Sequence record: SRR9188677_160
DNA: 44,835 bases
Direction: 5' to 3' (one strand)
The notes below the pieces were generated by a model. That model made no database searches. It was given only the letters and a program-made list of their open reading frames with translations, and was not told the origin of the DNA. Positions 17,524-42,852 of the stretch are shown here, one piece after another (the first letter of the stretch is position 1; each line of letters starts with the position of its first letter). Both the position numbers and the translations under genes were made by a program.

Positions 17524-17560
17524 AATAAAAAAGCCCCGCCTTTTTGGAGGCGGGGCTTAT
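17524..17560 (-). terminator. Attenuator intrinsic terminator of the ilv operon
   Basis: Minus strand AAGCCCCGCCT-CCAAAA-AGGCGGGGCTT followed by TTTTATT; lies between the leader peptide and ilvE. Confidence 0.9.
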
Positions 17561-17589
17561 ATGCTTAGTATCTTTTATACTGTATAAAC

Positions 17590-17682
17590 TCATCCTCCAT
17601 GCAGTGCAGGAATAATAATGACGATCACAATCGTAATGACTGTAATAACCGTGTTCACATTATTTGTTCTGCCTCTTAACAT
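17590..17682 (-). CDS. ilv operon leader peptide (Ile/Val/Thr-rich)
   Basis: Manual translation MLRGRTNNVNTVITVITIVIVIIIPALHGG* (30 aa; 7 Ile, 5 Val, 4 Thr), followed by antiterminator/terminator. Confidence 0.9.
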   Translation of the reverse strand: MLRGRTNNVNTVITVITIVIVIIIPALHGG

Positions 17683-17698
17683 GGATGATGTATTAAGT

Positions 17699-17729
17699 CA
17701 AAAGTACTCCCACCATCGCAAAAAACAAA
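17699..17729 (-). promoter_or_regulatory. Bacteroidota housekeeping promoter for ilv leader/ilvE
   Basis: Minus strand TTTG (17729-17726), 19-nt spacer, TACTTTTG (17706-17699): matches TTTG-N19-21-TAnnTTTG. Confidence 0.75.
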
Positions 17730-17786: not shown

Positions 17787-18899
17787 TCAGATGATTGTCG
17801 ACTGGTTTAAACTGGCATTGCTGCGTCTGCCGCTGTCTCTATGGCGCTCGATATGATCCACGATCAGATCGCCGATGGCGGTAGTGGTATAATTATTCAC
17901 CGGGTCAATATCTTTCGAAACAAAACCATGTGATAGTGTCCAGGCCACTGCTTCGCGCACGGCATGGGCTTCTGCTTCCATACCGAAATAGTCAAGCATC
18001 ATGGCAGCCGAGAGTACAGAACCCAGCGGATTGGCAATATCTTTTCCGGCGGCCTGTGGGTAAGAACCATGGATGGGCTCAAACAAAGCCGACTGATTAC
18101 CTACCGATGCGGAAGGCAATAAACCCAGTGAACCACTCAGCACACTGGCTTCATCGCTGATGATATCACCAAACATGTTTTCAGTTAATACCACATCGAA
18201 CTGTGCCGGATTCAGGATGATCTGCATGGCAGCATTATCCACAAACATATAATCCACTGCCACATCTGCATACTGTACCGCAATCTCCTGGATCACTCTG
18301 CGCCAGAGACGGGAGGTTTCCAGTACATTGGCTTTATCTACCAGCGTTAATTTCTTTTTTCTTTTCTGTGCATACTGAAATGCCAGGTGCGCTACCCTTT
18401 CTATTTCGGGTTTGGTATATACGCAATCATCTGAAGCACGTGTCTGGTCTTCACTCAATTCTTTTTTGCCGAAATAAATACCACCGGTCAGCTCACGGAA
18501 GATCACAAAATCGATCCCCTTCAGTTGTTTCGCTTTCAGCGGAGATAAATGCTGCAGCGCATGATAGGTAGTAATGGGACGAATATTGGCAAACAACTGC
18601 AGCTCTTTGCGCAGCTTCAGCAATCCCTGCTCGGGCCTCACTTTGGCGGTAGGGTCATTGTCATATTTGGGATGACCGATGGCGCCAAATAAAATAGCAT
18701 CGCTGGCCAAACAGGTAGCAATGGTTTCATCCGGTAAAGGATTCCCTGTTTTATCAATGGCATCTGCCCCCATGATGCCATAACTATAGTCAAACTGATG
18801 TCCATAGCGATGCGCAATGGCATTCAGTACTTTGATGGATTGCTGCGTCACTTCCGGACCAATGCCATCTCCTAATATTACCGCGATCTTCTTTTCCAT
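17787..18899 (-). CDS. leuB: 3-isopropylmalate dehydrogenase
   Basis: GDGIGPEV, RPEQGLLKLRK, RELTGGIYFG, DKANVL, NMFGDIISDE, EPIHGSYP. Confidence 0.97.
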   Translation of the reverse strand: MEKKIAVILGDGIGPEVTQQSIKVLNAIAHRYGHQFDYSYGIMGADAIDKTGNPLPDETIATCLASDAILFGAIGHPKYDNDPTAKVRPEQGLLKLRKELQLFANIRPITTYHALQHLSPLKAKQLKGIDFVIFRELTGGIYFGKKELSEDQTRASDDCVYTKPEIERVAHLAFQYAQKRKKKLTLVDKANVLETSRLWRRVIQEIAVQYADVAVDYMFVDNAAMQIILNPAQFDVVLTENMFGDIISDEASVLSGSLGLLPSASVGNQSALFEPIHGSYPQAAGKDIANPLGSVLSAAMMLDYFGMEAEAHAVREAVAWTLSHGFVSKDIDPVNNYTTTAIGDLIVDHIERHRDSGRRSNASLNQSTII

Positions 18900-18919
18900 A
18901 TCAGATATATTTCTTCGTT

Positions 18920-20371
18920 TTATGCTGCAACCCTCCCCTGTTCCAGTTGTAAGGAACGCGTAACACAGGAAGGAATTTCTGTTGTATAATGACTCACATA
19001 TACCAATGTTTTCTGCATCTCCACACAGACCGTATTCACCAATGCAATAAACCTTGCCGTGGTTTCGCTATCCAGTCCCTGGCAAGGCTCATCCAGTATC
19101 AGCATGGGAGGATTCTTCACCAGTGCCCTGGCCAGTAATACCAGCCGCTGCTGACCATTGGATAACTGTCTGAAATATTGCTGGCTGATGTTATTCAAAT
19201 CCAATACCGCGATCCACTGCTCAACGATGGAACGCTGTTGCAGCGATAACTGCCTGAATAAACCGATCGTATCAAACAAACCCGAAGCCACTACTTCAAA
19301 AGCAGTAGCGGCCGAATCAAAATAATGATGCAGTTCAGGAGATACATAACCGATTTTCTGTTTAATATCCCAGATACTTTCTCCACTGCCTTTGCGGCGG
19401 TCGAAGAGATAGATCTCATTGGCAAAAGCCTGTGGGTTATCTCCATTCACCAAACTCAACAGGGTTGATTTGCCGGAACCATTATGTCCTGAGATACTCC
19501 AGCACTCTCCTTTTTTCACTTCCCAGTTGATATGACTGAGTATGGCTCGGTTATGATATACCACACTCGTATTTACCATACGGATGGCCACTGAAAAATC
19601 AGGATACCTGTACGCCGGCGGAATAGTTTTGCAGGAATCGATAAACCCATCACTGATCACATTACTTTGTTTGGTTAGCGTGGGTTGAGCAAGATACTCT
19701 GCACGGGGCATCATCTGCTCCAGCTTACCATTGGCCAGTACTGCTACATGTGTAACAGAAGCCGGTATATCCGAATCGGCTGTTACCAGCAAATAGTGAA
19801 TACCACGTGCTGCCAATGTATCCAGCAGCTTATTCAGCATAGCTCTGGCAGCGATATCGAGGCCCGTATACGGACTATCGAGGAGCAGCCATTCTGCATT
19901 TTGCAAAACAGCCTGTGCCAGTTGAAACCGTTTGTGCTCTCCGTTGGATAACTGGATCAAACGGGTATCAGCAATATGAGAGATCTGCAGTAAGGCAAGT
20001 GTTTCCTCGAGTAAAGTTGTATCGGTAGTAATCTCCGATAATACTTCTGTTACCGTTGGTGCATCTTCTGCATCATTCGAATTAAACCGCTGCTGGTAAT
20101 AAAAAGAGTTGAGGTTGGATAAATTTTTGAACTGGTGTTGTTGTGAGATTACCGCCATCTTCGGCCTGCGATTATGCTGAAAAATAATTTCTCCGCGGGA
20201 AAAACACTGTCCGGCCAACGCTTTGATCAAACTGCTTTTACCGGAACCAGACGCACCAATCACCGCCAGCCGCTGGCCTTCTGTCAGACTGAAAGACAGA
20301 TCCTGCAACACAGGCCGACCCGACAGTTGTACTGTAAGGCCTGTTACCTGCAAAAGAGGAGTTACTGTCAT
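18920..20371 (-). CDS. Twin-domain ABC ATPase, ModF-like, without membrane partner
   Basis: Two Walker A motifs (GASGSGKS, GHNGSGKS); signatures LSNGE and LSNGQ; Walker B LLLDSP (degenerate) and LILDEP; ModF-like GSGESIWDIKQKIG. Confidence 0.85.
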   Translation of the reverse strand: MTVTPLLQVTGLTVQLSGRPVLQDLSFSLTEGQRLAVIGASGSGKSSLIKALAGQCFSRGEIIFQHNRRPKMAVISQQHQFKNLSNLNSFYYQQRFNSNDAEDAPTVTEVLSEITTDTTLLEETLALLQISHIADTRLIQLSNGEHKRFQLAQAVLQNAEWLLLDSPYTGLDIAARAMLNKLLDTLAARGIHYLLVTADSDIPASVTHVAVLANGKLEQMMPRAEYLAQPTLTKQSNVISDGFIDSCKTIPPAYRYPDFSVAIRMVNTSVVYHNRAILSHINWEVKKGECWSISGHNGSGKSTLLSLVNGDNPQAFANEIYLFDRRKGSGESIWDIKQKIGYVSPELHHYFDSAATAFEVVASGLFDTIGLFRQLSLQQRSIVEQWIAVLDLNNISQQYFRQLSNGQQRLVLLARALVKNPPMLILDEPCQGLDSETTARFIALVNTVCVEMQKTLVYVSHYTTEIPSCVTRSLQLEQGRVAA

Positions 20372-20376
20372 AAAAA

Positions 20377-20964
20377 TTAAGATGTCAATTGCGCTTCAAA
20401 AGCTTCAATCTGTGCCTTATTGCTGATGAGATAATCAATATCATCATAGCCGTTTAACAGGCATGTTTTTTTATAGGTGTTGATATCAAATACTTCCTGT
20501 GTACCCGTTGCATCGATCGTGATGGTTTGTGCAGCTACATCGATACTGATGGTAGCTTCGTTACCCAATGAAAACAGTTCTGCCAGAAAAGCATCGCTCA
20601 CTTTCACCGGCAAAACGCCATTATTTAATGCGTTATTCTTGAAGATATCTGCAAAAAAACTGGACACCACCGCTTTGAAACCATAATCCTGCAGGGCCCA
20701 AGCCGCATGTTCGCGAGAAGAGCCGCAACCAAAATTCTTACCTGCTACCAGAATTTCGCCACTGTATTGCGGCTGGTTCAGTACAAAATCTGTTTTGGGT
20801 TGGCTCTCATCATTATTGATATAGCGCCAGTCGCGAAACAGATTTTTGCCAAACCCATCGCGGGTAGTCGCTTTTAAAAAACGTGCCGGAATGATCTGGT
20901 CGGTATCCACATTTTCCATGGGAAGCGGAACAAAACAGCTATGTATTTTCTGTAGAGGTTTCAT
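20377..20964 (-). CDS. leuD: 3-isopropylmalate dehydratase small subunit
   Basis: [32 protein letters not shown]. Confidence 0.97.
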
Positions 20965-20971
20965 GATATAT

Positions 20972-21001
20972 GCTTAACGCTAAACGCTGAATGCACAACG
21001 C
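20972..21001. repeat. 7-mer tandem repeat
   Basis: GCTTAAC GCTAAAC GCTGAAT GCACAAC between leuC and leuD. Confidence 0.6.
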
Positions 21002-21012
21002 TTTTCTTATTT

Positions 21013-22413
21013 TTAAATTAATTCTCTTACATCTGTTACTACGCCTGTAATGGCAGCAGCGGCAGCGGTTAAGGGGCTTGCCAAAAGTGTTCGGGCACCT
21101 GCTCCCTGTCTGCCTTCAAAATTCCGGTTGCTGGTGCTGATGCAGTATTCGCCCGCGGGAATCTTGTCTTCATTCATTCCCAAACAGGCACTGCAGCCTG
21201 CCTGGCGAATTTCAAATCCGGCTTCTTTAAAAATCTGATCCAGGCCTTCTGCCTGCACCTGCCTCGCTACCTGCTGCGAGCCCGGCACAATCATTACCTG
21301 CACCTGTTCATTTTTCTTTCTTCCCTTCACCAATGCCGCTACCAAACGCAGGTCTTCGATGCGCGAATTGGTACAGCTACCAATGAATACATGCTGAACC
21401 GGCATACCCAGTAACGGTTTACCGGATTCCAGTCCCATGTATTTCAAAGCTTTGATGATATTATTTCTTTCTCCCTCATCCGGAATCGTATCTGTAACAG
21501 GAATGGTTCCGTTAATGGCAATACCCAGACCCGGGTTGGTGCCATACGTGATCATAGGTTGAATATGGGATGCATTGATATTAATTTCTTCATCAAACAC
21601 GGCATCAGCATCGCTATACAATTCTTTCCACTGCGCTATTTTTTTATCCCATTGCGCCACACCTGGTGCAAACTGGCGGCCCTTGATATAGTTGAAAGTA
21701 GTTTCATCAGGCGCAATCATGCCACCGCGGGCACCCATTTCAATACTCATGTTACAGATGGTCATCCTTGCTTCCATGGATAAGGCACGGATAGCAGAAC
21801 CGGCATATTCTACAAAATAACCGGTAGCTCCACTGGCTGTGATCTGCGCAATGATGTAAAGGATAATATCTTTTGATAATACCCCCGGATGCAATTCTCC
21901 CTCAATATTGATGCGCATCAGTTTGGGTTTTGTCTGCAGCAGACACTGCGAGGCAAATACCATTTCCACTTCGCTGGTACCAATACCAAACGCAATGGCA
22001 CCAAAAGCACCATGGGTTGAGGTATGACTATCACCACACACAATGGTCATGCCCGGCTGGGTAATACCCAACTCAGGCCCTATCACATGCACAATACCCT
22101 GGAAAGGATGTCCGAGGCCATACAGCTCAACATGATGTTTCTTACAATTCTCGATGAGTTGCTGCACCTGTAAACGCGAGAGTTCATCTTTAATGGGTAA
22201 ATGCTGGTTCTGCGTAGGTACATTGTGATCGGCAGTGGCTACTACCTGTTGCGGACGGAATACGGTGAGGCCTCTTTTTTCAATTCCGTTAAATGCCTGT
22301 GGACTGGTTACTTCGTGTATAAAGTGTTTATCGATATACAATACAGAAGGGCCGTCTTCTATTTTCTGTACTACGTGTTTGTCCCAGATTTTATCAAATA
22401 ATGTCTTTGCCAT
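21013..22413 (-). CDS. leuC: 3-isopropylmalate dehydratase large subunit
   Basis: [48 protein letters not shown]. Confidence 0.98.
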
Positions 22414-22483: not shown

Positions 22484-23650
22484 CTAAGCGATGGCCGGCT
22501 CTGCTTTGTACGCTTTTGCCAGCTGGTGCAGGTCCTCTTCCTCAACTTCCTTTTTCCTGTCTGCTACCTGCAGGAATGATTCATAGAGAACATCTATATC
22601 GTTACGTGTAAACTCATAACCGATTTTCTGAAAGCGGTGTGCCAGTGCACTGCGTCCGCTCCGGGCAGTTAATACAATTTTACTGCCTTCTGCTCCCACT
22701 TCTTCGGGATTAATGATCTCGTAAGTAAGTGAATCCTTCAAAAAGCCATCCTGGTGAATGCCGGATGAATGCGAAAATGCATTGGCACCCACAATGGCTT
22801 TGTTTACCTGCACAGGTACCCGCATGGTTTCAGCCACTTCACGACTGAGCGGGTTCAGCATTCTGGTATTAATATTGGTATATAAACCCAGGTGTTTGTG
22901 TTGTTTCAGTACCATCACCACTTCTTCCAGTGAAGTATTACCGGCTCTTTCGCCCAAGCCATTGATGGTACACTCAATCTGCCTGGCACCAGCTACCACA
23001 CCTGCGATGGAATTGGCGGTGGCCAGTCCGAGATCGTTATGGCAATGGCAGGACAGAATCGCTTTGTCTACATTGGGCACATGGTTCATCAGGTAAGCGA
23101 TTTTTTCGCCGTATTGCTGGGGCAGACAATAACCGGTTGTATCCGGGATATTGACTACGGTAGCACCGGCTTTGATCACAGCTTCTACCACACGGGCCAG
23201 GTATTCATTATCGGTACGGCCGGCATCTTCGGCGTAAAACTCTACATCGTCTACAAAATTCTTCGCCCATTTTACCGACTGAACGGCACGTTCCAGGATT
23301 TCCTCACGGGTAGCATTGAATTTGGCTTTGATATGGTAATCAGAAGTACCGATACCAGTATGGATGCGCGGGCGTTTTGCATATTTCAGCGCCTCGGCGG
23401 CCACTTCAATATCTTTCTGCACCGCACGGCTGAGTCCGCAGATGGTAGCGTTTTTCACTACTTTGGAGATCTCCGTTACCGATTCAAAATCGCCCGGGCT
23501 TGAAATGGGGAAACCGGCTTCAATAATATCCACCCCCAATGCTTCCAGGTGCAGGGCCAGTGTTAGTTTCTCTTTGGTATTGAGTTTACAACCGGGTACC
23601 TGCTCGCCATCGCGGAGGGTAGTATCGAATATGAAGACCTGTTGATCCAT
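22484..23650 (-). CDS. leuA: 2-isopropylmalate synthase, short form lacking the C-terminal regulatory domain
   Basis: [39 protein letters not shown]; only 388 aa. Confidence 0.95.
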
Positions 23651-23677
23651 TAATATTTTTTAAGCTAATTTTCAGAT

Positions 23678-23744
23678 GAAAAGGCAGGCTATTACTTTTG
23701 TTATCGATTGCCGTTAATAACAAAGCTCATAGCCTGCCATTTTC
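23678..23744. promoter_or_regulatory. Long inverted repeat in the divergent leuA / hypothetical-gene control region, containing a plus-strand TAnnTTTG box
   Basis: GGCAGGCTAT (23683-92) / ATAGCCTGCC (23729-38); TTTGTTAT (23697-704) / ATAACAAA (23717-24); TACTTTTG at 23693-23700. Confidence 0.6.
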
Positions 23745-23864
23745 GAATATACTTTGTGTAATACAGGAAATAAGACCAAAATTGACGGTATTTTACACTC
23801 TATAAACCCGGTAAAAACCCATGAAACCCTTACCGGTACTGGATTTTAGTTTAAAAAAAATACG

Positions 23865-25421
23865 ATGCCTAACCGTTCCACCGATGCTTTATTTCAACTG
23901 ATCCAATCACTGGAAAGATCAGAGAAGCGGAACTTTAAGCTGTATATGACCCGGAATTCGGGTTCCGGCGACCTGAAAGTGATCCAGTTATTTGATGCGC
24001 TGGATAAAATGAAGAACTACGATGAAGAACAGTTGTTAGTTAAAAACCCCTCGATCCAGAAACAGCAGTTATCGAACCTGAAAGCCCATCTATACCACGA
24101 GATTCTGGTTAGTCTGCGCCTTTTAAACCAGGAAGAGAATATCGATCTGGTACTGCACGAACAGCTCGATTTTGCGCGGCTTTTATATAACAAGGGATTA
24201 TACCTGCAAAGTCTGAAGATCCTGGACCGGATCAAGGAGCTTGCCCGCAGCAATCACCAGGTAACTTACCAGCTGCAGGCATTGTTTTTGGAGAAAAAGA
24301 TCGAATCCCTGCATATTACCCGCAGTATGCAGGACCGGGCAGAAAAACTGAGTAACGAAGTAAATGAAGTGAACCAGCGTCTGGAACTGATCAGTGTATT
24401 ATCGAACCTCTCGCTGCAACTCTATAGCTGGTACATCAAAAACGGCCATGCCAGAAACGAAGAAGATACGGCCGCAGTAGATGCATTTCTGAGCCATCCG
24501 GCCATCCAGCAAGCCAAAGATGTAAAAGAATTTTACGAGCGGCTATACCTGTACCAATGTTATTGCTGGCATGCATTCATTACCCAGAACTTTCTGGGAT
24601 ATTACCGTTATTGCCAGAAATGGGTAGACCTGTTTGAGGCTAAACCGCGGATGATTGAAATTGAAACAGCGCATTATATCAAAGGCTTGCATAACCTGAT
24701 GGGCGCCCATTTTGACCTGCGCAATTTCCAGAAATTCAACGATACCCTTCAGCAGTTTGAGCAGTTCATGCAAACACCGGTGATACAGCAGAACCGCAAT
24801 AACCTGATACAGACCTTTATCTATCTGAATATATCCAAACTGAATAAACACTTTATGGAAGGCACTTTCAGTGAAGGGCTGGAACTGGTGCCGTATATTG
24901 AAGCGAAACTGGATGAGTTTGAGTTATATCTCGACCGTCACCGGGTACTGGTATTCTATTATAAAATAGCTTCTCTGTATTTCGGAAGCAGCGATTCGGA
25001 TAAAAGTATCGACTACCTCAACAAAATCATCAACTGGAAAGTAGACCTGCGAACAGACCTGCAATGTTATGCGAGGTTGCTGCACCTGATAGCACACTAT
25101 GAACTCGGTAATTTTGAATTGCTGGAATACCTGCTCAAATCGGTATACCGCTTCATGTACAAAATGCAGAACCTGAGTACCGTGGAAGAAGAGATTTTTG
25201 GATTCCTACGCAAATCCTTCCGCTTATCTCCCAAACAACTGAAACCGCAGTTCGAAACCTTACTGGCTACCTTAAAACCCCTCGAAAAAAGCCGTCTCGA
25301 AAGCCGTGCCTTTATGTATCTCGATATTATTTCCTGGCTGGAGAGTAAGATCAATGATGTGCCGGTACAAACCATCATCCGGCAGAAATACCTGGATGCG
25401 CTGAAGAAGGCAGAAGCATAA
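23865..25421 (+). CDS. Hypothetical all-helical protein (TPR-like repeats), candidate regulator divergent from leuA
   Basis: 518-aa ORF with no signal or TM segment; N-terminal LFQLIQSLERSEKRNFK segment; helical-repeat pattern. Function not recognisable. Confidence 0.8.
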   Translation: MPNRSTDALFQLIQSLERSEKRNFKLYMTRNSGSGDLKVIQLFDALDKMKNYDEEQLLVKNPSIQKQQLSNLKAHLYHEILVSLRLLNQEENIDLVLHEQLDFARLLYNKGLYLQSLKILDRIKELARSNHQVTYQLQALFLEKKIESLHITRSMQDRAEKLSNEVNEVNQRLELISVLSNLSLQLYSWYIKNGHARNEEDTAAVDAFLSHPAIQQAKDVKEFYERLYLYQCYCWHAFITQNFLGYYRYCQKWVDLFEAKPRMIEIETAHYIKGLHNLMGAHFDLRNFQKFNDTLQQFEQFMQTPVIQQNRNNLIQTFIYLNISKLNKHFMEGTFSEGLELVPYIEAKLDEFELYLDRHRVLVFYYKIASLYFGSSDSDKSIDYLNKIINWKVDLRTDLQCYARLLHLIAHYELGNFELLEYLLKSVYRFMYKMQNLSTVEEEIFGFLRKSFRLSPKQLKPQFETLLATLKPLEKSRLESRAFMYLDIISWLESKINDVPVQTIIRQKYLDALKKAEA

Positions 25422-36790: not shown

Positions 36791-38122
36791 TCAGGGTTTG
36801 AACCTTTCCATTACTTCTTTACCGGTAGCCACGTCAATCCCTTTCAATTCCATGTATACTACATTGGGCGACCAGAATGTACCGCCATCTACTTTCACAA
36901 ACAACCGGTTTAACTGCGCCGGCTTTTTGTTGATGGTGGCATACACACGGTATTTATTATCTCTGGGAGAAGGCATTAAGGTAAAAGTTTGTTTACGGTA
37001 AGAAACAAAATGAAGTTTATAAGTACCATCGCCCATCGCCTGCGATTTCATTCCATAGGCAAATACGCGCTGGATATAATTCAGTTCTTTGCGCATACCA
37101 CCTTCCTGGTAACGGATCCAGAACACATGTACGGGTGATTCACTATTCAGCTTTCCGTTTTTTTCATAGTTTAATTCGCAAACAATGGTATTGGTATTGG
37201 CATTACGCTGCAGGTAAAACAACTGGTATGGGTTTCCGGTAGGTACCGGAAAGGTATCCTGTGGTTCTATGGCTACAGTTGAGGGTAAGGCTGCGGTTGC
37301 GGACGGCTTCTTTCCCTGATCTGCCACAACAGGTGTAAAAGCGATACCACTGCTTAGCAGGATCAATAATCCTGTTAGTAATGTGTGATTGCTTTTAGGC
37401 GCTGTTGCTTTTGCGGCATCCCTGTCATCCAGTGTTTTTTTGGCACCGGTCAATCTTTTGATAGCGGTGATATTGGTTAACACTGCCATTAAAGCAAGGG
37501 GTATGGTAAAAATAGACATGGTCTCCAGCACATGAAAAGAAACACCCGGCAGATACCATTTATAATCCCCGCCCAGATAATTACCAGTAATACCACAGGC
37601 TATAGCCGTGATCCCGATCAGTATCACCCGCTCTGGTCTCTGCATCAGCCCGTCTTTACATTCAATGCCCAATCCTTCTGCCCTTGCGCGGGTATAACTC
37701 ACCATCATCGATCCGATCATGGCTATAAAAGCAAAAATGGAACTTAGAAAATAATGGTGCCCCACCAGGTAGTAACAGATTCCGAAAAACATAACCAGTT
37801 CGCTGTAACGATCCAGCACAGAATCGTACAAAGCACCAAAGGTAGAACTCATATTACCCAGCCTGGCCACCTGGCCATCCAGCATATCAAATAAACCGGC
37901 AAACAGGATCAGGGCACCCGCCCAACCTACATAAGAAAGGTCGCCGCGGTGACCTATTTCGGCACCTTTGATAAAGATCACTGCTACACCTATATTCAGT
38001 ATAAAACCGATGGTAGTAACCGCATTAGGTGTAAGCCCGGCTTTGATAAGCATTTTTACAAAAGGATCAATTACAACATAAATCCCTTTCTGTATCCGTA
38101 TTCTGAGTGGAACTTTTTCCAT
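36791..38122 (-). CDS. CDP-alcohol phosphatidyltransferase (probable phosphatidylinositol-phosphate synthase) fused to a C-terminal DUF4833-like domain
   Basis: Signature DMLDGQVAR...GALYDSVLD, SYTRARAEG, RPER; C-terminal LFYLQRNANTNTIVCELN...FWIRY...IQRVFAYG. Confidence 0.85.
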   Translation of the reverse strand: MEKVPLRIRIQKGIYVVIDPFVKMLIKAGLTPNAVTTIGFILNIGVAVIFIKGAEIGHRGDLSYVGWAGALILFAGLFDMLDGQVARLGNMSSTFGALYDSVLDRYSELVMFFGICYYLVGHHYFLSSIFAFIAMIGSMMVSYTRARAEGLGIECKDGLMQRPERVILIGITAIACGITGNYLGGDYKWYLPGVSFHVLETMSIFTIPLALMAVLTNITAIKRLTGAKKTLDDRDAAKATAPKSNHTLLTGLLILLSSGIAFTPVVADQGKKPSATAALPSTVAIEPQDTFPVPTGNPYQLFYLQRNANTNTIVCELNYEKNGKLNSESPVHVFWIRYQEGGMRKELNYIQRVFAYGMKSQAMGDGTYKLHFVSYRKQTFTLMPSPRDNKYRVYATINKKPAQLNRLFVKVDGGTFWSPNVVYMELKGIDVATGKEVMERFKP

Positions 38123-38147
38123 TAACCTTTTTTTCTATCGTAAAGTA

Positions 38148-40697
38148 TTAAAAATCAAATTTAAATCTGGCCCTTATCCCCAATGTGGCTACGTAAGGAT
38201 TTTCGAGATAATTAAACCTTTTCACCAGGTCTACCCTGATCAGTTTAAAAATATTGGCGATACCTACACTTCCTTCAATATAAGGTTTCTTATTCAGGGC
38301 AAAGGTAGTAGGCGATCCTTCAAATAAAGGATATTTGATCAGCGAAGGATCTTTGGCAGGATCATTCTCATCCCTTACACCCCCGTACAATACTTTCACC
38401 GACACCACTTCGCGCAGTTTCAGTTTTTTCAGCAGGGGAACCCGGTTAAAGAAGAGTCCGTTAAAATGGTGATCCACAGAAATTCCCAGAAAGCGATCGC
38501 TCACAAATTCCTGGAAGTTCATCAGGTTATACGAATTGAGCTGGTAAGCATAGGTCTGGTTGGCGCGGTGTACTGTCATCAGCGGATAAGGAATTTTCCC
38601 GAAAATATATCCGCCCTCTACCACCAGATCGCTGTAACCCAGCTGCGACATATACGCACGCTTTTCAAAGCGGGCACTGATATTCTGGTAATTATATTCG
38701 CTGTTCAGCAGACCCTTTACACCTGCAATAAAACGCAGGGTGAATATGGGATATTTATTAATGATAGGAATACGGTATACCTTACCCTGGTAAAACTGCT
38801 CCTTGGGTGCCCAGCGCAACTCGCCGGAGAATTCAGAAGTGATGATTTTATTTACATTCACGAGACTTCCGCTTACCTCTTTGTTATAAACAATGGCACC
38901 GGCCGGTTCCTGTTTCCAGTTTTTAAAGCCCAGCGAAAATGACAGGTGATTCTCAAATTCTTTTACAAAATCGACCTTGAAATTGCTGTTGTATAACCAC
39001 TTATCGTTTTTACCTCTTTTGAACGAGAGGAGGAAGTTATCTTCTGCCACAAACTGCAGTTCCTGTCCGGGAATTTTGGTATCGTGCTGGTAACTTACCC
39101 GCACATAATTCAGCGGGAAGGTATAGATCGATTTGTTGTTAAGCGAGTAAGTAGTACTCAGAAACCCTTTCCAGCGTTCATCTTTAAATCCATATGCACC
39201 ATAGGTTTCAAAATATAACCGTTTACTGAATTTAGGGGTAGTTCTTCCACCCAATCGCAGTTTAAACCCTTCTACCGGGTTAAAGCTGTAGAAAGCAGCT
39301 GCGGGTCCGATTTCAAAGGGCCCTACAGAGGTATAACCGGCCAGCAAAAAAGTAGCAATGGCAAGGGTTCTGCGGAAAGAAGGCATTTTTTCCAGACTGT
39401 CGATATTACTGTACACTTTCGATTCTGTATGCGTAAGTGTATCATGCCTTCCGGCTTTCCAGAAATCATCCGGTAGCTTATCAGCTTTCTCCTTTTTTAC
39501 CAGTGCCGGCCCATCGTACACAGTATCCGGCAAAGCCTGGTTGATTTTGAATTTGCGGTATGATACGGTGCGCTCTCCAAAAAATCCCGTACCGGAACCT
39601 TTGGTTACACTGGCATCTGCCATGATATTACTGCGGCTCAGGTGGTATCGGTTGTCTTCACTTTTTTCAAAGTCGAGGTCGATATGCAGTTCCCGCACAA
39701 AATTGAGGTTGGCATTTTTGCTCAGGAACATACTGATTTTCTCCACTGAATAGTTACCATCCAGTGTTACCCACATGTTTCCGCGAAACAGCAGATCATT
39801 GGTATTCCGGGGGGTAAAATAAATCTTGATCAGTTTGTGTCCATTTGCATCCACCGTGGTATCCCTGATATAATACATATAAAAGGTAGGTGCCAGATCG
39901 GCAATAGGGCTCAGAAACTGGTAGGTAAACAGCGGAATATCATTGTCATAGATATCAACATCCATATACAACCGGTTCAGGTAACTGCTTACACCCGCGT
40001 CATCGATGTACTCACCTAAATTCACCCGCTTCTGACCGGTAACAATGGTTTTTGTTTTTTCGGGTTTCTTACGGAAATACTTTTGCGAAAGGGTTTCTTC
40101 CAGGTAAACAGGTAATAAAGCCTTACCCTCCAGTTTGGTGGTATCCCTGTTTTCGAAAAGAAATTTATAGTTCTTGAGTAATTTAGCGTTGCTCAGTTTA
40201 TCTGAAACATTACTGATAGATACCTGCATTTTTTCGTACTGCTCATACTGTACGTAATTATAACTGTCGGTACGGTTTAGGGGTTTGTTGGCTATCACCC
40301 TTCTGATCAATTCTACGGCCGGGTTACCTTTGTTACGATAGGGTGCTCTTTTGCGTGTAGTTACCGTAACACTGTTGATCGCTTTAGGATCTGTTTCCAG
40401 TTCAAAATTCAGGGTCTGTGTAATACCCGGTGTAATCGGCTTCAGGATAGTCAGATATCCTATATAGGTTACCTGCAGTGTAGCAATTTTACCGGAAGAA
40501 GTGAGCTTGTATCTACCCAAACTGTCTGTCACTGTTCCACGGCCACCTTTCAGTACCACGCTTACATATTGAAGCGGCTGTTTACTATACATATCAGTAA
40601 CCACACCCTGCACTACGGTTTGTGCAAAGCCCTGTACTATTCCGGTGAATAATATCAATCCCAGCAATACCCCTCTTCTCAATTGTTTTCTTGTCAT
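38148..40697 (-). CDS. Outer-membrane protein: carboxypeptidase-regulatory-like N-domain plus DUF5686-like beta-barrel
   Basis: Signal peptide; VQGVVTD..PL.YVSV...GTVTDSLGRY..YIGY N-domain; NPAVELIRRVI; FNPVEG.KLRLGGRT; terminal aromatic beta-signal RFKFDF. Confidence 0.8.
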   Translation of the reverse strand: MTRKQLRRGVLLGLILFTGIVQGFAQTVVQGVVTDMYSKQPLQYVSVVLKGGRGTVTDSLGRYKLTSSGKIATLQVTYIGYLTILKPITPGITQTLNFELETDPKAINSVTVTTRKRAPYRNKGNPAVELIRRVIANKPLNRTDSYNYVQYEQYEKMQVSISNVSDKLSNAKLLKNYKFLFENRDTTKLEGKALLPVYLEETLSQKYFRKKPEKTKTIVTGQKRVNLGEYIDDAGVSSYLNRLYMDVDIYDNDIPLFTYQFLSPIADLAPTFYMYYIRDTTVDANGHKLIKIYFTPRNTNDLLFRGNMWVTLDGNYSVEKISMFLSKNANLNFVRELHIDLDFEKSEDNRYHLSRSNIMADASVTKGSGTGFFGERTVSYRKFKINQALPDTVYDGPALVKKEKADKLPDDFWKAGRHDTLTHTESKVYSNIDSLEKMPSFRRTLAIATFLLAGYTSVGPFEIGPAAAFYSFNPVEGFKLRLGGRTTPKFSKRLYFETYGAYGFKDERWKGFLSTTYSLNNKSIYTFPLNYVRVSYQHDTKIPGQELQFVAEDNFLLSFKRGKNDKWLYNSNFKVDFVKEFENHLSFSLGFKNWKQEPAGAIVYNKEVSGSLVNVNKIITSEFSGELRWAPKEQFYQGKVYRIPIINKYPIFTLRFIAGVKGLLNSEYNYQNISARFEKRAYMSQLGYSDLVVEGGYIFGKIPYPLMTVHRANQTYAYQLNSYNLMNFQEFVSDRFLGISVDHHFNGLFFNRVPLLKKLKLREVVSVKVLYGGVRDENDPAKDPSLIKYPLFEGSPTTFALNKKPYIEGSVGIANIFKLIRVDLVKRFNYLENPYVATLGIRARFKFDF

Positions 40698-40703
40698 TTT
40701 TTA

Positions 40704-41075
40704 TTATTTAAACACAAATCGTTTTTGTAAAACATAATTATATAATATCCCAACTGCCAGCGATACTGTAGCTTTTGAGACTACATAGCTATAACCGGCA
40801 AAATGAGTAAGTAAAAAAACACCACCCGATACCAGTACGAGGTTGCCAATCCAGACCAGGATATAGCGTAAGGCCTGGAAGTGAATTTTTTTACTTTTTG
40901 CTTTAAATACCCAGGAGCGGTTCATCAGAAAATTCACTACCCCTCCGCTGATCGTTCCCAACACGCTGGCCAGCAGGTACCAGCAACCAAACACTTCTTT
41001 TAGTACAATGGTCATCGTAAAATCCACTAATGTGGCCGTGATAGATGCTGCCTGTGCTTTTACGAATGTTGCCAT
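40704..41075 (-). CDS. GtrA family small membrane protein
   Basis: 123 aa with four TM segments; ATLVDF, VNFLMNRSWVF, NYVLQKRFVF. Confidence 0.88.
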   Translation of the reverse strand: MATFVKAQAASITATLVDFTMTIVLKEVFGCWYLLASVLGTISGGVVNFLMNRSWVFKAKSKKIHFQALRYILVWIGNLVLVSGGVFLLTHFAGYSYVVSKATVSLAVGILYNYVLQKRFVFK

Positions 41076-41521
41076 GCAATAATTACTAGTATCAGTTGTA
41101 ACAATAGGTTGGTATAAACACCCGCCAGTATATCATCTGTCATCACACCCCAACCTCCGGGTAACGATTCTGCTTTACGGATATACAACGGTTTTACAAT
41201 GTCAAAAAAACGGAACAGTAACAGTGCCGCCAGTATCCATGGCCAGCTAACCGGTATGAAGAGCAGGCTGATACACATTCCTGCTGCCTCATCAATTACT
41301 ACCCGGCTGCTGTCTTTCCCCCAGTCTTGCTCTACTACATAAGCCGCCCATATTCCAATAATGATGATGGTTGCTGTTGCAGCTATCATCGTTTCTTCTG
41401 TAACACCATATGCAATAGCCTTCCACCAGAGAAAACAGGTTACCATGGCGGCGATTGTTCCGCCACCTTTGATAAACCCGATACCGAGGCAGCTGGCTGT
41501 TATTTTAGGTAACTGCATCAT
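41060..41521 (-). CDS. PgpA-family phosphatase (probable PIP phosphatase)
   Basis: KDSSRVVIDE, FRFFDIVKP, GGWGVMTDDILAG; overlaps the MIPS stop (ATGA) and the gtrA start. Confidence 0.88.
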   Translation of the reverse strand: MMQLPKITASCLGIGFIKGGGTIAAMVTCFLWWKAIAYGVTEETMIAATATIIIIGIWAAYVVEQDWGKDSSRVVIDEAAGMCISLLFIPVSWPWILAALLLFRFFDIVKPLYIRKAESLPGGWGVMTDDILAGVYTNLLLQLILVIIAWQHS

Positions 41522-42852
41522 AAAGCTTCTACCAGATCCTGGTAGTAATCCAATCCCAGGTGTGTGATCAGATCCTCACCCATGATATGGCGCAGTGTAT
41601 TCTGCAGTTTGATCAGCTGTTTGAAAATATCATGCTCCGGACGCAGGCCGGGTGCTGTTTGCGGCGATTTGAAATAGAAGGATAACCATTCCTGGATGCC
41701 CGACATGTCTGCGCGTTTAGCCAGATCCATGAACAGGGCCAGGTCTAACACAATCGGTGCTGCCAGTATCGAATCGCGGCAAAGGAAATTGATCTTGATC
41801 TGCATACCATAACCCAACCATCCGAAGATGTCGATATTGTCCCAGCTCTCTTTGTTATCGCCATGCGGCGGATAGTAGTTGATCCGTACTTTATGGTACA
41901 GATCGCCATACAAAGCAGGATTGATTTCGGGTTGCAGAATATCTTCCAGCACACTTAGTTTGGAAACTTCTTTGGTTTTGAAATTATCCGGATCGTCTAA
42001 TACCAATCCATCACGGTTACCCAGAATATTGGTAGAGAACCAACCCCTGATGCCCAGCGCACGTGCGTGTAAACCCGGTGCTACAATGGTTTTCATCAGT
42101 GTTTGTCCGGTTTTGAAATCTTTACCGCTGATAGGCGTTCCGGTTTCTTTGGCCAGCTCCATCAGCGCAGGAATATCGCAGGTAAGATTTGGCGCACCAT
42201 TGGCAAACGGAACACCTAAGGTAAGTGCGGCATAGGCATAGATCATGCTGGGAGAAATGGCAGGATCATTGTTGCGCAAACCTTCTTCAAAAGATTCGAT
42301 GGTCTGGTGTACCGCTGATTCTTCGATATATTTTTCAGTAGAACCACACCATACAATTACTACGCGACTGCAATCATGGGCCTCTTTGAAATTTTCGATA
42401 TCATTCATCACTTCTTTGGCCAGATCATATTTGGTAGCGGCTTTTTTAACATGTGTACCATCGAGGTTTTTTACATAAGATTGATCAAACACCGCTTTCA
42501 TCGGAACAATGGCTTCCAGTTCGGGTTTGATAGAATGCAATAAACCGGGTTCCAGCACTTTGGCATTCATGGCTGCTTCATACACATTATCAGCATATAC
42601 ATCCCATCCCCCAAAAGCGATATTGTTGAGTTCGGCCAGTGGTACAAAATCTTTGATCAGTGGATACCGGTTCTCTGTACGCTTACCCAAACGGATATTA
42701 CCCATCTGCGTAAGGGCACCGATAGGTTGAGATAATCCTTTGTTCACCGCAATAACGCCGGCGATCATGGTGGTGGCAACTGCTCCCAATCCGGGTAACA
42801 AGATGCCTAATTTCCCTTCTGCAGGTTGAATGCTCTCTTTCATAGTAGTCAT
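41518..42852 (-). CDS. ino1: myo-Inositol-1-phosphate synthase
   Basis: GLGAVAT, FGGWD, GKDFKTGQT, NILGNRDG, GDNKESWD, CRDSILAAPIVLDL, SFYFKSP. Confidence 0.95.
   Translation of the reverse strand: MTTMKESIQPAEGKLGILLPGLGAVATTMIAGVIAVNKGLSQPIGALTQMGNIRLGKRTENRYPLIKDFVPLAELNNIAFGGWDVYADNVYEAAMNAKVLEPGLLHSIKPELEAIVPMKAVFDQSYVKNLDGTHVKKAATKYDLAKEVMNDIENFKEAHDCSRVVIVWCGSTEKYIEESAVHQTIESFEEGLRNNDPAISPSMIYAYAALTLGVPFANGAPNLTCDIPALMELAKETGTPISGKDFKTGQTLMKTIVAPGLHARALGIRGWFSTNILGNRDGLVLDDPDNFKTKEVSKLSVLEDILQPEINPALYGDLYHKVRINYYPPHGDNKESWDNIDIFGWLGYGMQIKINFLCRDSILAAPIVLDLALFMDLAKRADMSGIQEWLSFYFKSPQTAPGLRPEHDIFKQLIKLQNTLRHIMGEDLITHLGLDYYQDLVEAL

What the first reader, a model, noticed from the sequence alone, without database searches (positions are those of the whole stretch)
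23650..25421. Candidate novel regulator of leucine/BCAA metabolism divergent from leuA
Seen: a 518-aa soluble helical protein transcribed divergently from leuA across a 214-bp region. That region holds a long inverted repeat and three AAACCC repeats (23804, 23815, 23824) spaced about one helical turn apart. Unlike ilv and thr, the leu operon has no leader peptide, and this LeuA lacks its feedback domain, so another control is expected. The small basic N-terminal helical domain plus TPR-like body is reminiscent of ligand-sensing HTH-TPR regulators (inference). From memory, and unverified, similar proteins lie next to leuA or branched-chain ketoacid dehydrogenase genes in other Bacteroidota.
Basis: partly seen in the sequence, partly recalled or inferred. 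Interest (0 to 1): 0.75.

Follow-up and report, generated by a model that had tools for sequence, protein, structure and literature searches.

The report
RusR-like regulator of leucine biosynthesis
This gene most likely encodes an undescribed DNA-binding switch for the leucine-making genes of many Bacteroidota bacteria, and its probable binding site can be read from the DNA, so a single binding or knockout experiment could test it.

Summary
The 518-aa ORF is real and is a distant, full-length homologue of RusR/BT2802 (E 2e-37, below the family cut-off). RusR is genetically required for activation of its locus. Orthologues face leuA in 73 of 73 close loci. In 70 of 73 Bacteroidota genomes with a strong hit, a copy faces the head of a leu operon (leuA, leuC or ilvE). 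Models give a sigma4/LuxR-like HTH (weak, Z<6), no wing, an RRNPP/MalT-like TPR body and a homodimer (0.83 vs control 0.00). The AAACCC repeats are not conserved (3 of 74). The likely operator is TTAC-N6-YAA at 23793-23805, about 60 nt upstream of a non-consensus -7 box, with a second copy over the regulator's start codon. The inverted repeat is a covarying 5' leader hairpin, not an operator. Best reading: a dimeric, ligand-controlled activator. Binding, sign and ligand are inferred. Covariation signals fail tree-aware tests. A Chitinophagaceae paralogue faces an uncatalogued small-RNA-like gene instead. The scan noted RusR-like regulators before on other DNA (e1-7264931), not this leu subfamily.

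The parts
23865..25421 (+). 518-aa RusR/BT2802-like regulator (leu subfamily)
   Evidence: ORF; NF058569 E 2.1e-37, 129.3 bits vs cut-off 550, residues 6-504; AlphaFold2 pLDDT 94.7, all helix
23913..24134 (+). N-terminal HTH-like domain, residues 17-90; putative recognition helix about residues 66-80
   Evidence: VIA-align of the separately folded domain: SigR region 4 Z 5.3, rmsd 2.2, 64 aligned; EsrB DNA-binding domain Z 5.7; all Z under 6. L76 invariant and K73 at least 90% conserved in 80 N-terminal rows. Residue 70 covaries with the operator base, not significant on the tree
24147..25397 (+). TPR-like superhelical body, putative effector-binding and dimer part
   Evidence: Rap phi105 Z 19.8 rmsd 4.4 300 aligned; NprR Z 18.6; MalT domain III Z 17.8; LGN Z 18.1. 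Predicted homodimer interface
23793..23805 (+). Putative operator site 1, TTACACTCTATAA (WTACD-N5-YAA), about -54 to -66 from the inferred leuA start of transcription
   Evidence: 62 of 74 close loci at the same position; exact motif in 27 of 45 non-redundant distant loci vs 1.2 in shuffles; 40-43 nt from the -7 box in 34 of 36
23774..23784 (+). Conserved promoter-proximal flank (consensus GATCAAAATTG), role unknown
   Evidence: Several columns 88-100% conserved in 74 loci
23860..23872 (+). Putative operator site 2 over the regulator's own start codon (autoregulation)
   Evidence: TACG before ATG in 73 of 74 close loci; motif with at most one mismatch in 32 of 45 distant loci. Part of it is coding sequence and the A at -3 is a general initiation signal (PMC6847099)
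23744..23751 (-). -7 promoter box of leuA, TATATTCG (non-consensus); inferred start of transcription near 23739
   Evidence: 73 of 74 close loci; 29 of 39 distant boxes depart from TTTG; consensus and numbering from PMC6847099. Start not measured
23679..23742 (-). 5' leader hairpin with U-run; loop carries GGCAAUCG (23705-23712)
   Evidence: z -5.66; 91.3% of cells paired, 12 of 18 pairs with two-sided change, 0 of 500 shuffles; deleted in L036 and L037; loop 8-mer in 49 of 74 leaders vs 1.35 expected; no Rfam match at gathering score
23824..23847 (.). Second partly conserved element (AAAnCCTT...TAnTGnnTTT), unexplained; holds the third AAACCC
   Evidence: Many columns 84-96% conserved; a likeness to IHF-type sites is recalled, not tested
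22484..23650 (-). leuA, short 2-isopropylmalate synthase without the C-terminal regulatory domain
17787..22413 (-). leuC, leuD, ModF-like ABC ATPase, leuB: rest of the putative target operon
17526..17706 (-). ilvE control region for contrast: consensus TTTG-N19-TACTTTTG promoter, Ile/Val/Thr leader peptide (17590-17658) and terminator

Best explanation
The protein is a homodimeric, one-component transcription factor of a RusR-like superfamily. Its N-terminal sigma4/LuxR-like HTH domains bind the pseudo-palindrome TTAC-N6-YAA about 60 nt upstream of the weak leuA promoter and activate it. A second site over its own start codon gives autoregulation. The TPR body binds a small effector that switches activity. 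I favour shut-off by leucine or its ketoacid, because the linked LeuA lacks its feedback domain and the operon lacks a leader peptide. Shown: gene context, homology, conserved sites, predicted folds. Inferred: DNA binding, sign, ligand. Odds: DNA-binding regulator of this promoter 0.85; activator 0.65; end-product shut-off 0.4; induction by an intermediate 0.25.
For: Head-to-head with leuA in 73 of 73 close loci with upstream DNA, gap 203-230 bp, 140 in two. Of 73 fetched strong-hit loci, 54 face leuA, 2 leuC and 1 an ilvE-led leu operon, so the gene follows the operon head rather than one enzyme; 0 of 25 weaker homologues do. 12 of 12 unfetched strong hits are also divergent from leuA. Full-length match to the BT2802 family; the rusR deletion gave about 10% activation and no growth on ribose (bioRxiv 10.1101/574913, passages). 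Site 1 keeps 40-43 nt from the -7 box in 34 of 36 loci although its distance to the regulator start shifts by 12 nt. In the paralogue clade both sites tend to change C to T at motif position 4. Residue 70 ranks first and residue 74 second of 518 columns for covariation with that base (36/5/3/14), and residue 70 stays first without the paralogue clade. Homodimer score 0.83, best control 0.00; the mark was reached by 21 of 30 known pairs and 0 of 23 monomers; contacts agree at least 63%, pLDDT at least 76; residues 66-78 are not listed in the interface. Several regulator-less genomes with long LeuA show leader peptides with Leu/Ile and a terminator instead (L252, L254, L255, L260).
Against: No experiment. 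HTH matches are all Z under 6, inside the range the tool calls common, and Foldseek found none. The motif was derived by eye from the loci it was tested on, and it is short: 21 matches in this window. The residue-70 covariation is not significant on independent pairs (3.3 same way, 0.6 opposite, median p 0.375), and I noticed residue 70 before the scan. The short-LeuA/regulator co-occurrence (67/12/3/68) is essentially one inherited clade, with no support from independent pairs. Three regulators go with long LeuA and 12 short LeuAs have none. The -33 element is weak in this phylum generally, so its absence (4 of 74) says little. No ligand pocket was shown: the leu-specific residues 147-187 fall in the predicted dimer interface and may be plain contacts.
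Confidence: 0.65

Rival explanations
1. Same protein and sites, but a repressor with leucine as co-repressor, possibly looping between sites 1 and 2.
For: End-product repression is the simplest control of a biosynthetic operon (own knowledge). Two sites 67 nt apart. The conserved flank reaches to about -35.
Against: Site 1 lies at -54 to -66, outside the core promoter. The -7 box is non-consensus in 29 of 39 loci, whereas the attenuated ilvE promoter is consensus. The one characterised homologue is required for activation.
Confidence: 0.15
2. RNA-binding antiterminator acting on the leader hairpin.
For: A terminator-like hairpin with a U-run starts near +1, covaries, and has a conserved loop.
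Against: The hairpin is deleted in L036 and L037 while spacing and upstream sites stay. Many distant leaders are short with no such hairpin by inspection. The conserved sites lie upstream of the promoter.
Confidence: 0.05
3. A trans-acting regulatory subunit that binds the short LeuA and restores leucine feedback (as HisZ does for short HisG), with no role on DNA.
For: Co-occurrence with short LeuA; TPR bodies bind proteins.
Against: Orthologues face leuC or ilvE when gene order differs, paralogues face gltB, P-II/amt or an RNA gene, and two genomes keep only the paralogue with no leuA match (G187, G063). Binding to LeuA was not modelled.
Confidence: 0.05
4. Conserved neighbour with an unrelated function; the upstream conservation is only two back-to-back promoters and a translation-start signal.
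For: The linkage may be one inherited event. A at -3 is a general initiation signal. Site 2 is partly coding.
Against: Linkage holds down to 34% identity and through operon rearrangement. TAC, not only the A, is conserved. The family is homologous to RusR.
Confidence: 0.08

Closest known systems
RusR (BT2802) of Bacteroides thetaiotaomicron; NCBIfam NF058569
   Same: Full-length homology (E 2e-37, residues 6-504 on profile 4-501), similar size, gene next to its target locus; RusR is needed for activation.
   Different: 129 bits against a cut-off of 550. Faces amino-acid biosynthesis genes, not a ribose PUL. In the passages read, no operator, structure or ligand was given for RusR.
RRNPP regulators (NprR, PlcR, Rap, AimR)
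   Same: N-terminal small domain plus TPR superhelix: Rap Z 19.8, NprR Z 18.6, PlcR Z 15.7, AimR Z 13.7; predicted dimer.
   Different: About 10% sequence identity, a longer body, an N-terminal domain closest to sigma4/LuxR HTH, and no conserved peptide in the divergent leader. Eukaryotic TPR proteins score equally (LGN Z 18.1), so the fold does not imply kinship.
MalT (TPR-like sensor domain III plus LuxR-type HTH)
   Same: Body matches MalT domain III (Z 17.8, rmsd 4.5, 292 aligned); LuxR/NarL-type DNA-binding domains are among the N-terminal hits.
   Different: No ATPase domain; HTH is N-terminal. MalT's domain order is recalled.
Divergent LysR-type biosynthesis activators such as IlvY, and yeast Leu3 (recalled, not tested)
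   Same: Works like them: divergent gene, site near -60 with T-N11-A symmetry, autoregulation, effector from the pathway.
   Different: No Pfam match to any such family; unrelated fold.
FopS/GibS multicopy sRNAs of B. thetaiotaomicron (PMC11697453), for the side finding
   Same: Multicopy paralogous RNAs that target 5' ends of mRNAs (abstract).
   Different: Sequence relation not tested; the element here was found only in 13 of 301 genomes, all with a Chitinophagaceae-type regulator.

Membership tests
BT2802/RusR family (NF058569) | Score at or above the curated cut-off of 550 bits | tested here: not met
   129.3 bits; 0 of 301 sampled genomes pass, the control B. thetaiotaomicron does
BT2802/RusR family (NF058569) | Full-length homology to the profile (superfamily level) | tested here: met
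   E 2.1e-37, residues 6-504 on 4-501 of 502
BT2802/RusR family (NF058569) | Located at a ribose utilisation locus (ribokinase, SusC/D, permease) | tested here: not met
   Neighbours are leuA-leuB and an amidohydrolase
BT2802/RusR family (NF058569) | Required for activation of the adjacent operon | not testable with these tools
   Needs a deletion mutant; RNA contigs cannot show it
RRNPP | TPR superhelical C-terminal domain | tested here: met
   Z 15.7-19.8 to Rap, NprR, PlcR
RRNPP | N-terminal XRE-type HTH or Rap three-helix bundle | tested here: inconclusive
   Listed hits are mostly sigma4/LuxR HTH, all Z under 6
RRNPP | Adjacent gene for a secreted signalling peptide | tested here: inconclusive
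   No conserved peptide in the divergent leader; the region downstream of the gene was not screened for short ORFs across loci
Winged-helix regulators | Beta-hairpin wing after the recognition helix | tested here: not met
   No strand in either model; a prediction, pLDDT 88-95
Sigma4/LuxR-type HTH proteins | Compact helical HTH superposing on sigma region 4 | tested here: inconclusive
   About 28 of the top 50 rows by my count are sigma4-like or LuxR/NarL-type, rmsd mostly 2.0-3.6 over 53-75 residues, but Z 4.2-5.8; no Pfam HTH match
ECF sigma factors | Region 2 domain as well as region 4 | tested here: inconclusive
   No Pfam hit; the rest of the model matches TPR proteins
Leader-peptide attenuator (leuL type) | Conserved short ORF with a run of Leu codons before a terminator | tested here: not met
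   6 of 73 leaders with any such peptide, frames not conserved; positive controls ilvE and thrA found

The most novel reading that the evidence does not exclude
A phylum-wide superfamily of sigma4-HTH/TPR one-component sensors runs amino-acid and nitrogen metabolism in non-gut Bacteroidota. The leu subfamily senses leucine at its dimer interface and replaces both LeuA feedback and attenuation. In Chitinophagaceae a duplicate of regulator, promoter and leader gave a small RNA whose seed (GCAAGCAAUCG) pairs with the leaders of gltB, urease and ilvE. The leuA leader hairpin shows part of the same seed in its loop and may itself be released as an RNA. This would tie leucine status to nitrogen assimilation.
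Probability: 0.25. Interest if true: 0.88.

Novelty: new variant of a known kind. Interest (0 to 1): 0.72.

Why it matters
I found no description of how Bacteroidota with a short, feedback-less LeuA control leucine synthesis in the searches run. This subfamily is in 73 of 301 sampled genomes of the phylum and supplies a candidate regulator, operator, promoter and recognition helix, all directly testable. It would also give a first structural and operator model for the RusR superfamily, which has thousands of members (6,618 clusters at 50% identity) and, in the papers found, one genetically studied member. The paralogue-linked RNA points to an uncatalogued post-transcriptional network in Chitinophagaceae.

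Tried and rejected
AAACCC repeats as operator: rejected, 3 of 74 loci. Leader peptide 'FVINGNR' or a Leu-rich frame in the leuA leader: rejected, no conserved start or frame. leuA leader as pairing target of the paralogue-linked RNA: duplex -13.1 kcal/mol, no better than other leaders in the window (-8.3 to -19.1). Link to ketoacid dehydrogenase: by coordinates no E1 gene beside a regulator in 5 genomes, and 2 of 180 loci with one downstream. Short LeuA and regulator as repeated co-evolution: not supported by independent pairs. Pfam, PDB sequence search and ESM Atlas gave no named family. Foldseek on the N-terminal model gave nothing at E 0.001. Rfam: nothing for the window or the RNA loci at gathering score, apart from an unrelated SAM riboswitch in L159; only generic hairpin matches below it. 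RNA runs were contigs only and cannot show start, end, strand or level. One search used a misregistered structure string; one search is the corrected count. No whole genome is held for this window. Organism names for the clades outside Chitinophagaceae were not obtained, so those clades are unnamed here. Binding to LeuA was not modelled.

Full report
Observation. The ORF 23865-25421 (518 aa) is head-to-head with leuA across 214 bp. The operon is leuA-leuC-leuD-ABC ATPase-leuB, followed by separately controlled ilv and thr operons. LeuA is a short isopropylmalate synthase without the regulatory domain. The ilvE and thrA leaders hold classic leader peptides; the leuA leader does not (6 of 73 leaders with any Leu-rich ATG peptide). 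The inverted repeat and the three AAACCC are present, but three AAACCC occur in only 3 of 74 orthologous regions.

Family. Pfam gives nothing. NCBIfam gives one full-length match, NF058569 (BT2802 family), E 2.1e-37, 129 bits against a cut-off of 550. BT2802 is RusR: in the passages I read (12 of 18), the paper says it has predicted DNA-binding motifs and no homology to known PUL regulators, and its deletion abolishes growth on ribose and leaves about 10% activation. The family is large: 7,996 of 8,000 scored candidates and 6,618 clusters at 50% identity.

Gene context. Of the best 80 of 503 confirmed genome loci, 73 have upstream DNA and all 73 face leuA, with gaps of 203-230 bp and two of 140; titles that name a taxon are mostly Chitinophagaceae. 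A profile matched 85 of 301 Bacteroidota genomes, with 129 matches, 85 of them above 500 bits in 73 genomes. I fetched 99 of the 129 plus one from G005. Of 73 strong loci, 54 face leuA, 2 leuC, 1 an ilvE-led leu operon across about 400 bp, 13 a small-RNA-like unit, 1 gltB, 1 P-II/amt and 1 is unassigned. None of 25 weaker loci face leu genes; two more gave no readable ORF. The 12 unfetched strong hits are all divergent from leuA by coordinates. My tally from these calls is 70 of 73 genomes with a copy at the head of a leu operon.

Relation to short LeuA. Among 150 listed LeuA matches (of 191), short with regulator 67, short without 12, long with 3, long without 68 (stop-to-stop frame length as proxy). 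On a LeuA tree of 73 rows, short LeuA plus regulator is essentially one clade, and independent pairs give no support. So this is an inherited module, not shown co-evolution. That loss of the domain removes feedback rests on a plant study seen only as a search listing (bioRxiv 10.1101/2024.06.14.598950); it is not measured for this enzyme.

Cis elements. Alignment of 74 intergenic regions shows a -7 box TATATTCG at 23751-23744 (73 of 74), site 1 at 23793-23805 (62 of 74) and TACG before the regulator's ATG (73 of 74). The consensus box is TAHHTTTG at -12 to -5, with -33 weakly evident (PMC6847099, passages), which puts the start near 23739 and site 1 at -54 to -66. In 45 non-redundant distant loci the exact motif WTACD-N5-YAA lies in the expected stretch in 27 (shuffles 1.2, at most 5), and site 2 matches in 32 with one mismatch allowed. 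Site 1 stays 40-43 nt from the -7 box in 34 of 36. The motif was read from these same loci and occurs 21 times in the window, so position, not the word, is the evidence. The hairpin starts near +1, covaries (91.3% paired, 12 of 18 pairs with two-sided change) and is deleted in two loci, so it is an accessory RNA element. Its role (terminator, stabiliser or released RNA) is open.

Structure. The full model is confident and all-helical. Residues about 130-510 match TPR superhelices: Rap Z 19.8, NprR 18.6, LGN 18.1, MalT domain III 17.8. The N-terminal domain folded alone matches mostly sigma region 4 and LuxR/NarL domains with low rmsd but Z under 6, a lead rather than proof. Residues 1-498 modelled as a homodimer scored 0.83 against a best control of 0.00 (mark reached by 21 of 30 pairs, 0 of 23 monomers; contact agreement at least 63%, pLDDT at least 76). 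Leu-clade residues 147, 151, 152, 158, 159, 180, 181 and 187 lie in that interface; the putative recognition helix is not listed in it. Residue 70 is the top of 518 columns for covariation with position 4 of site 2, residue 74 second, but the tree-aware test is not significant (median p 0.375).

Mechanism. Most likely a dimer binds site 1 and activates the weak leuA promoter, limits its own synthesis through site 2, and is switched by a pathway metabolite. I favour shut-off by leucine or ketoisocaproate (0.4) over induction by an intermediate (0.25) and over repression (0.15). Everything past context, homology and conservation is inference.

Side finding. The 13-member paralogue clade faces a promoter-repeat-terminator unit without ORF. 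Its motif is enriched over the reversed control (87 in 100 or more of matches per genome; for example 28 vs 1 in G005), and its complement sits in 7 mRNA leaders against 1 in sense. The leuA leader loop carries 8 of its bases in 49 of 74 loci against 1.35 expected.

Literature. Ten searches found RusR papers but no description of this subfamily, its operator or the RNA. I read passages of PMC12596196, PMC9860122, PMC9723704 and GapMind 2026, and the abstract and outline of PMC11697453. Most subscription journals, bioRxiv supplements and public fitness data were out of reach and could already hold a phenotype.

Verdict. A real and probably important regulator: it works like a divergent biosynthesis activator, belongs to the RusR superfamily but not to the RusR family, and is a new variant of a known kind. 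Interest 0.72.

Noticed in passing
L122, L135, L151-L155, L157, L161, L165-L167, L173 (upstream of the regulator, opposite strand): A paralogue clade (55-63% identical, nested in the leuA-linked clade) faces no protein gene but a promoter, one to three copies of GCAAGCAAUCG and a terminator: a putative small RNA with no Rfam match in the five loci scanned. Its 19-base core is in 13 of 301 genomes, often in several copies. It may or may not be the family of earlier notes e1-4296409 or e1-4326399; a sequence look-up found nothing.
   Followed up: partly
L216, L217, L219, L221, L242, L244, L271: Of 70 examined matches (of 77) to GCARGCAATCG in 5 genomes, 30 are in coding sequence, 13 sense before a terminator, 7 antisense in a 5' leader against 1 sense, 8 antisense before a terminator, 13 other; two loci fall in two classes. 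The antisense leaders include gltB twice, urease, aldolase and ilvE, named by eye from their N-termini. A DNA-binding site for another factor is not excluded.
   Followed up: partly
L188, L171, L134, L190/L191/L196, L214/L215, L273/L203: Other family members face gltB, P-II plus ammonium transporter, or aminopeptidase N, follow carbamoyl-phosphate synthase, or lie near nagB-like genes. The gltB- and P-II-facing copies change leu-specific residues around 147-187.
   Followed up: partly
L252, L254, L255, L260: Leader peptides with Leu/Ile and a terminator before long leuA in genomes without the regulator.
   Followed up: partly
L022, L048, L049, L054-L058, L060-L064: leuA is followed directly by ilv genes with no leuBCD in the 6 kb held; whether leuBCD lie elsewhere was not checked.
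   Followed up: no
window 18920-20371: A ModF-like double ABC ATPase without permease sits inside the leu operon, also in distant genomes that lack the regulator (L247, L249, L253).
   Followed up: no
window 36791-42852: Inositol-1-phosphate synthase, PgpA, GtrA, DUF5686, CDP-alcohol phosphatidyltransferase-DUF4833 cluster, a likely inositol-lipid locus.
   Followed up: no
window 23824-23847: Partly conserved element between the two operator-like sites, unexplained; the regulator's own promoter was not located.
   Followed up: no
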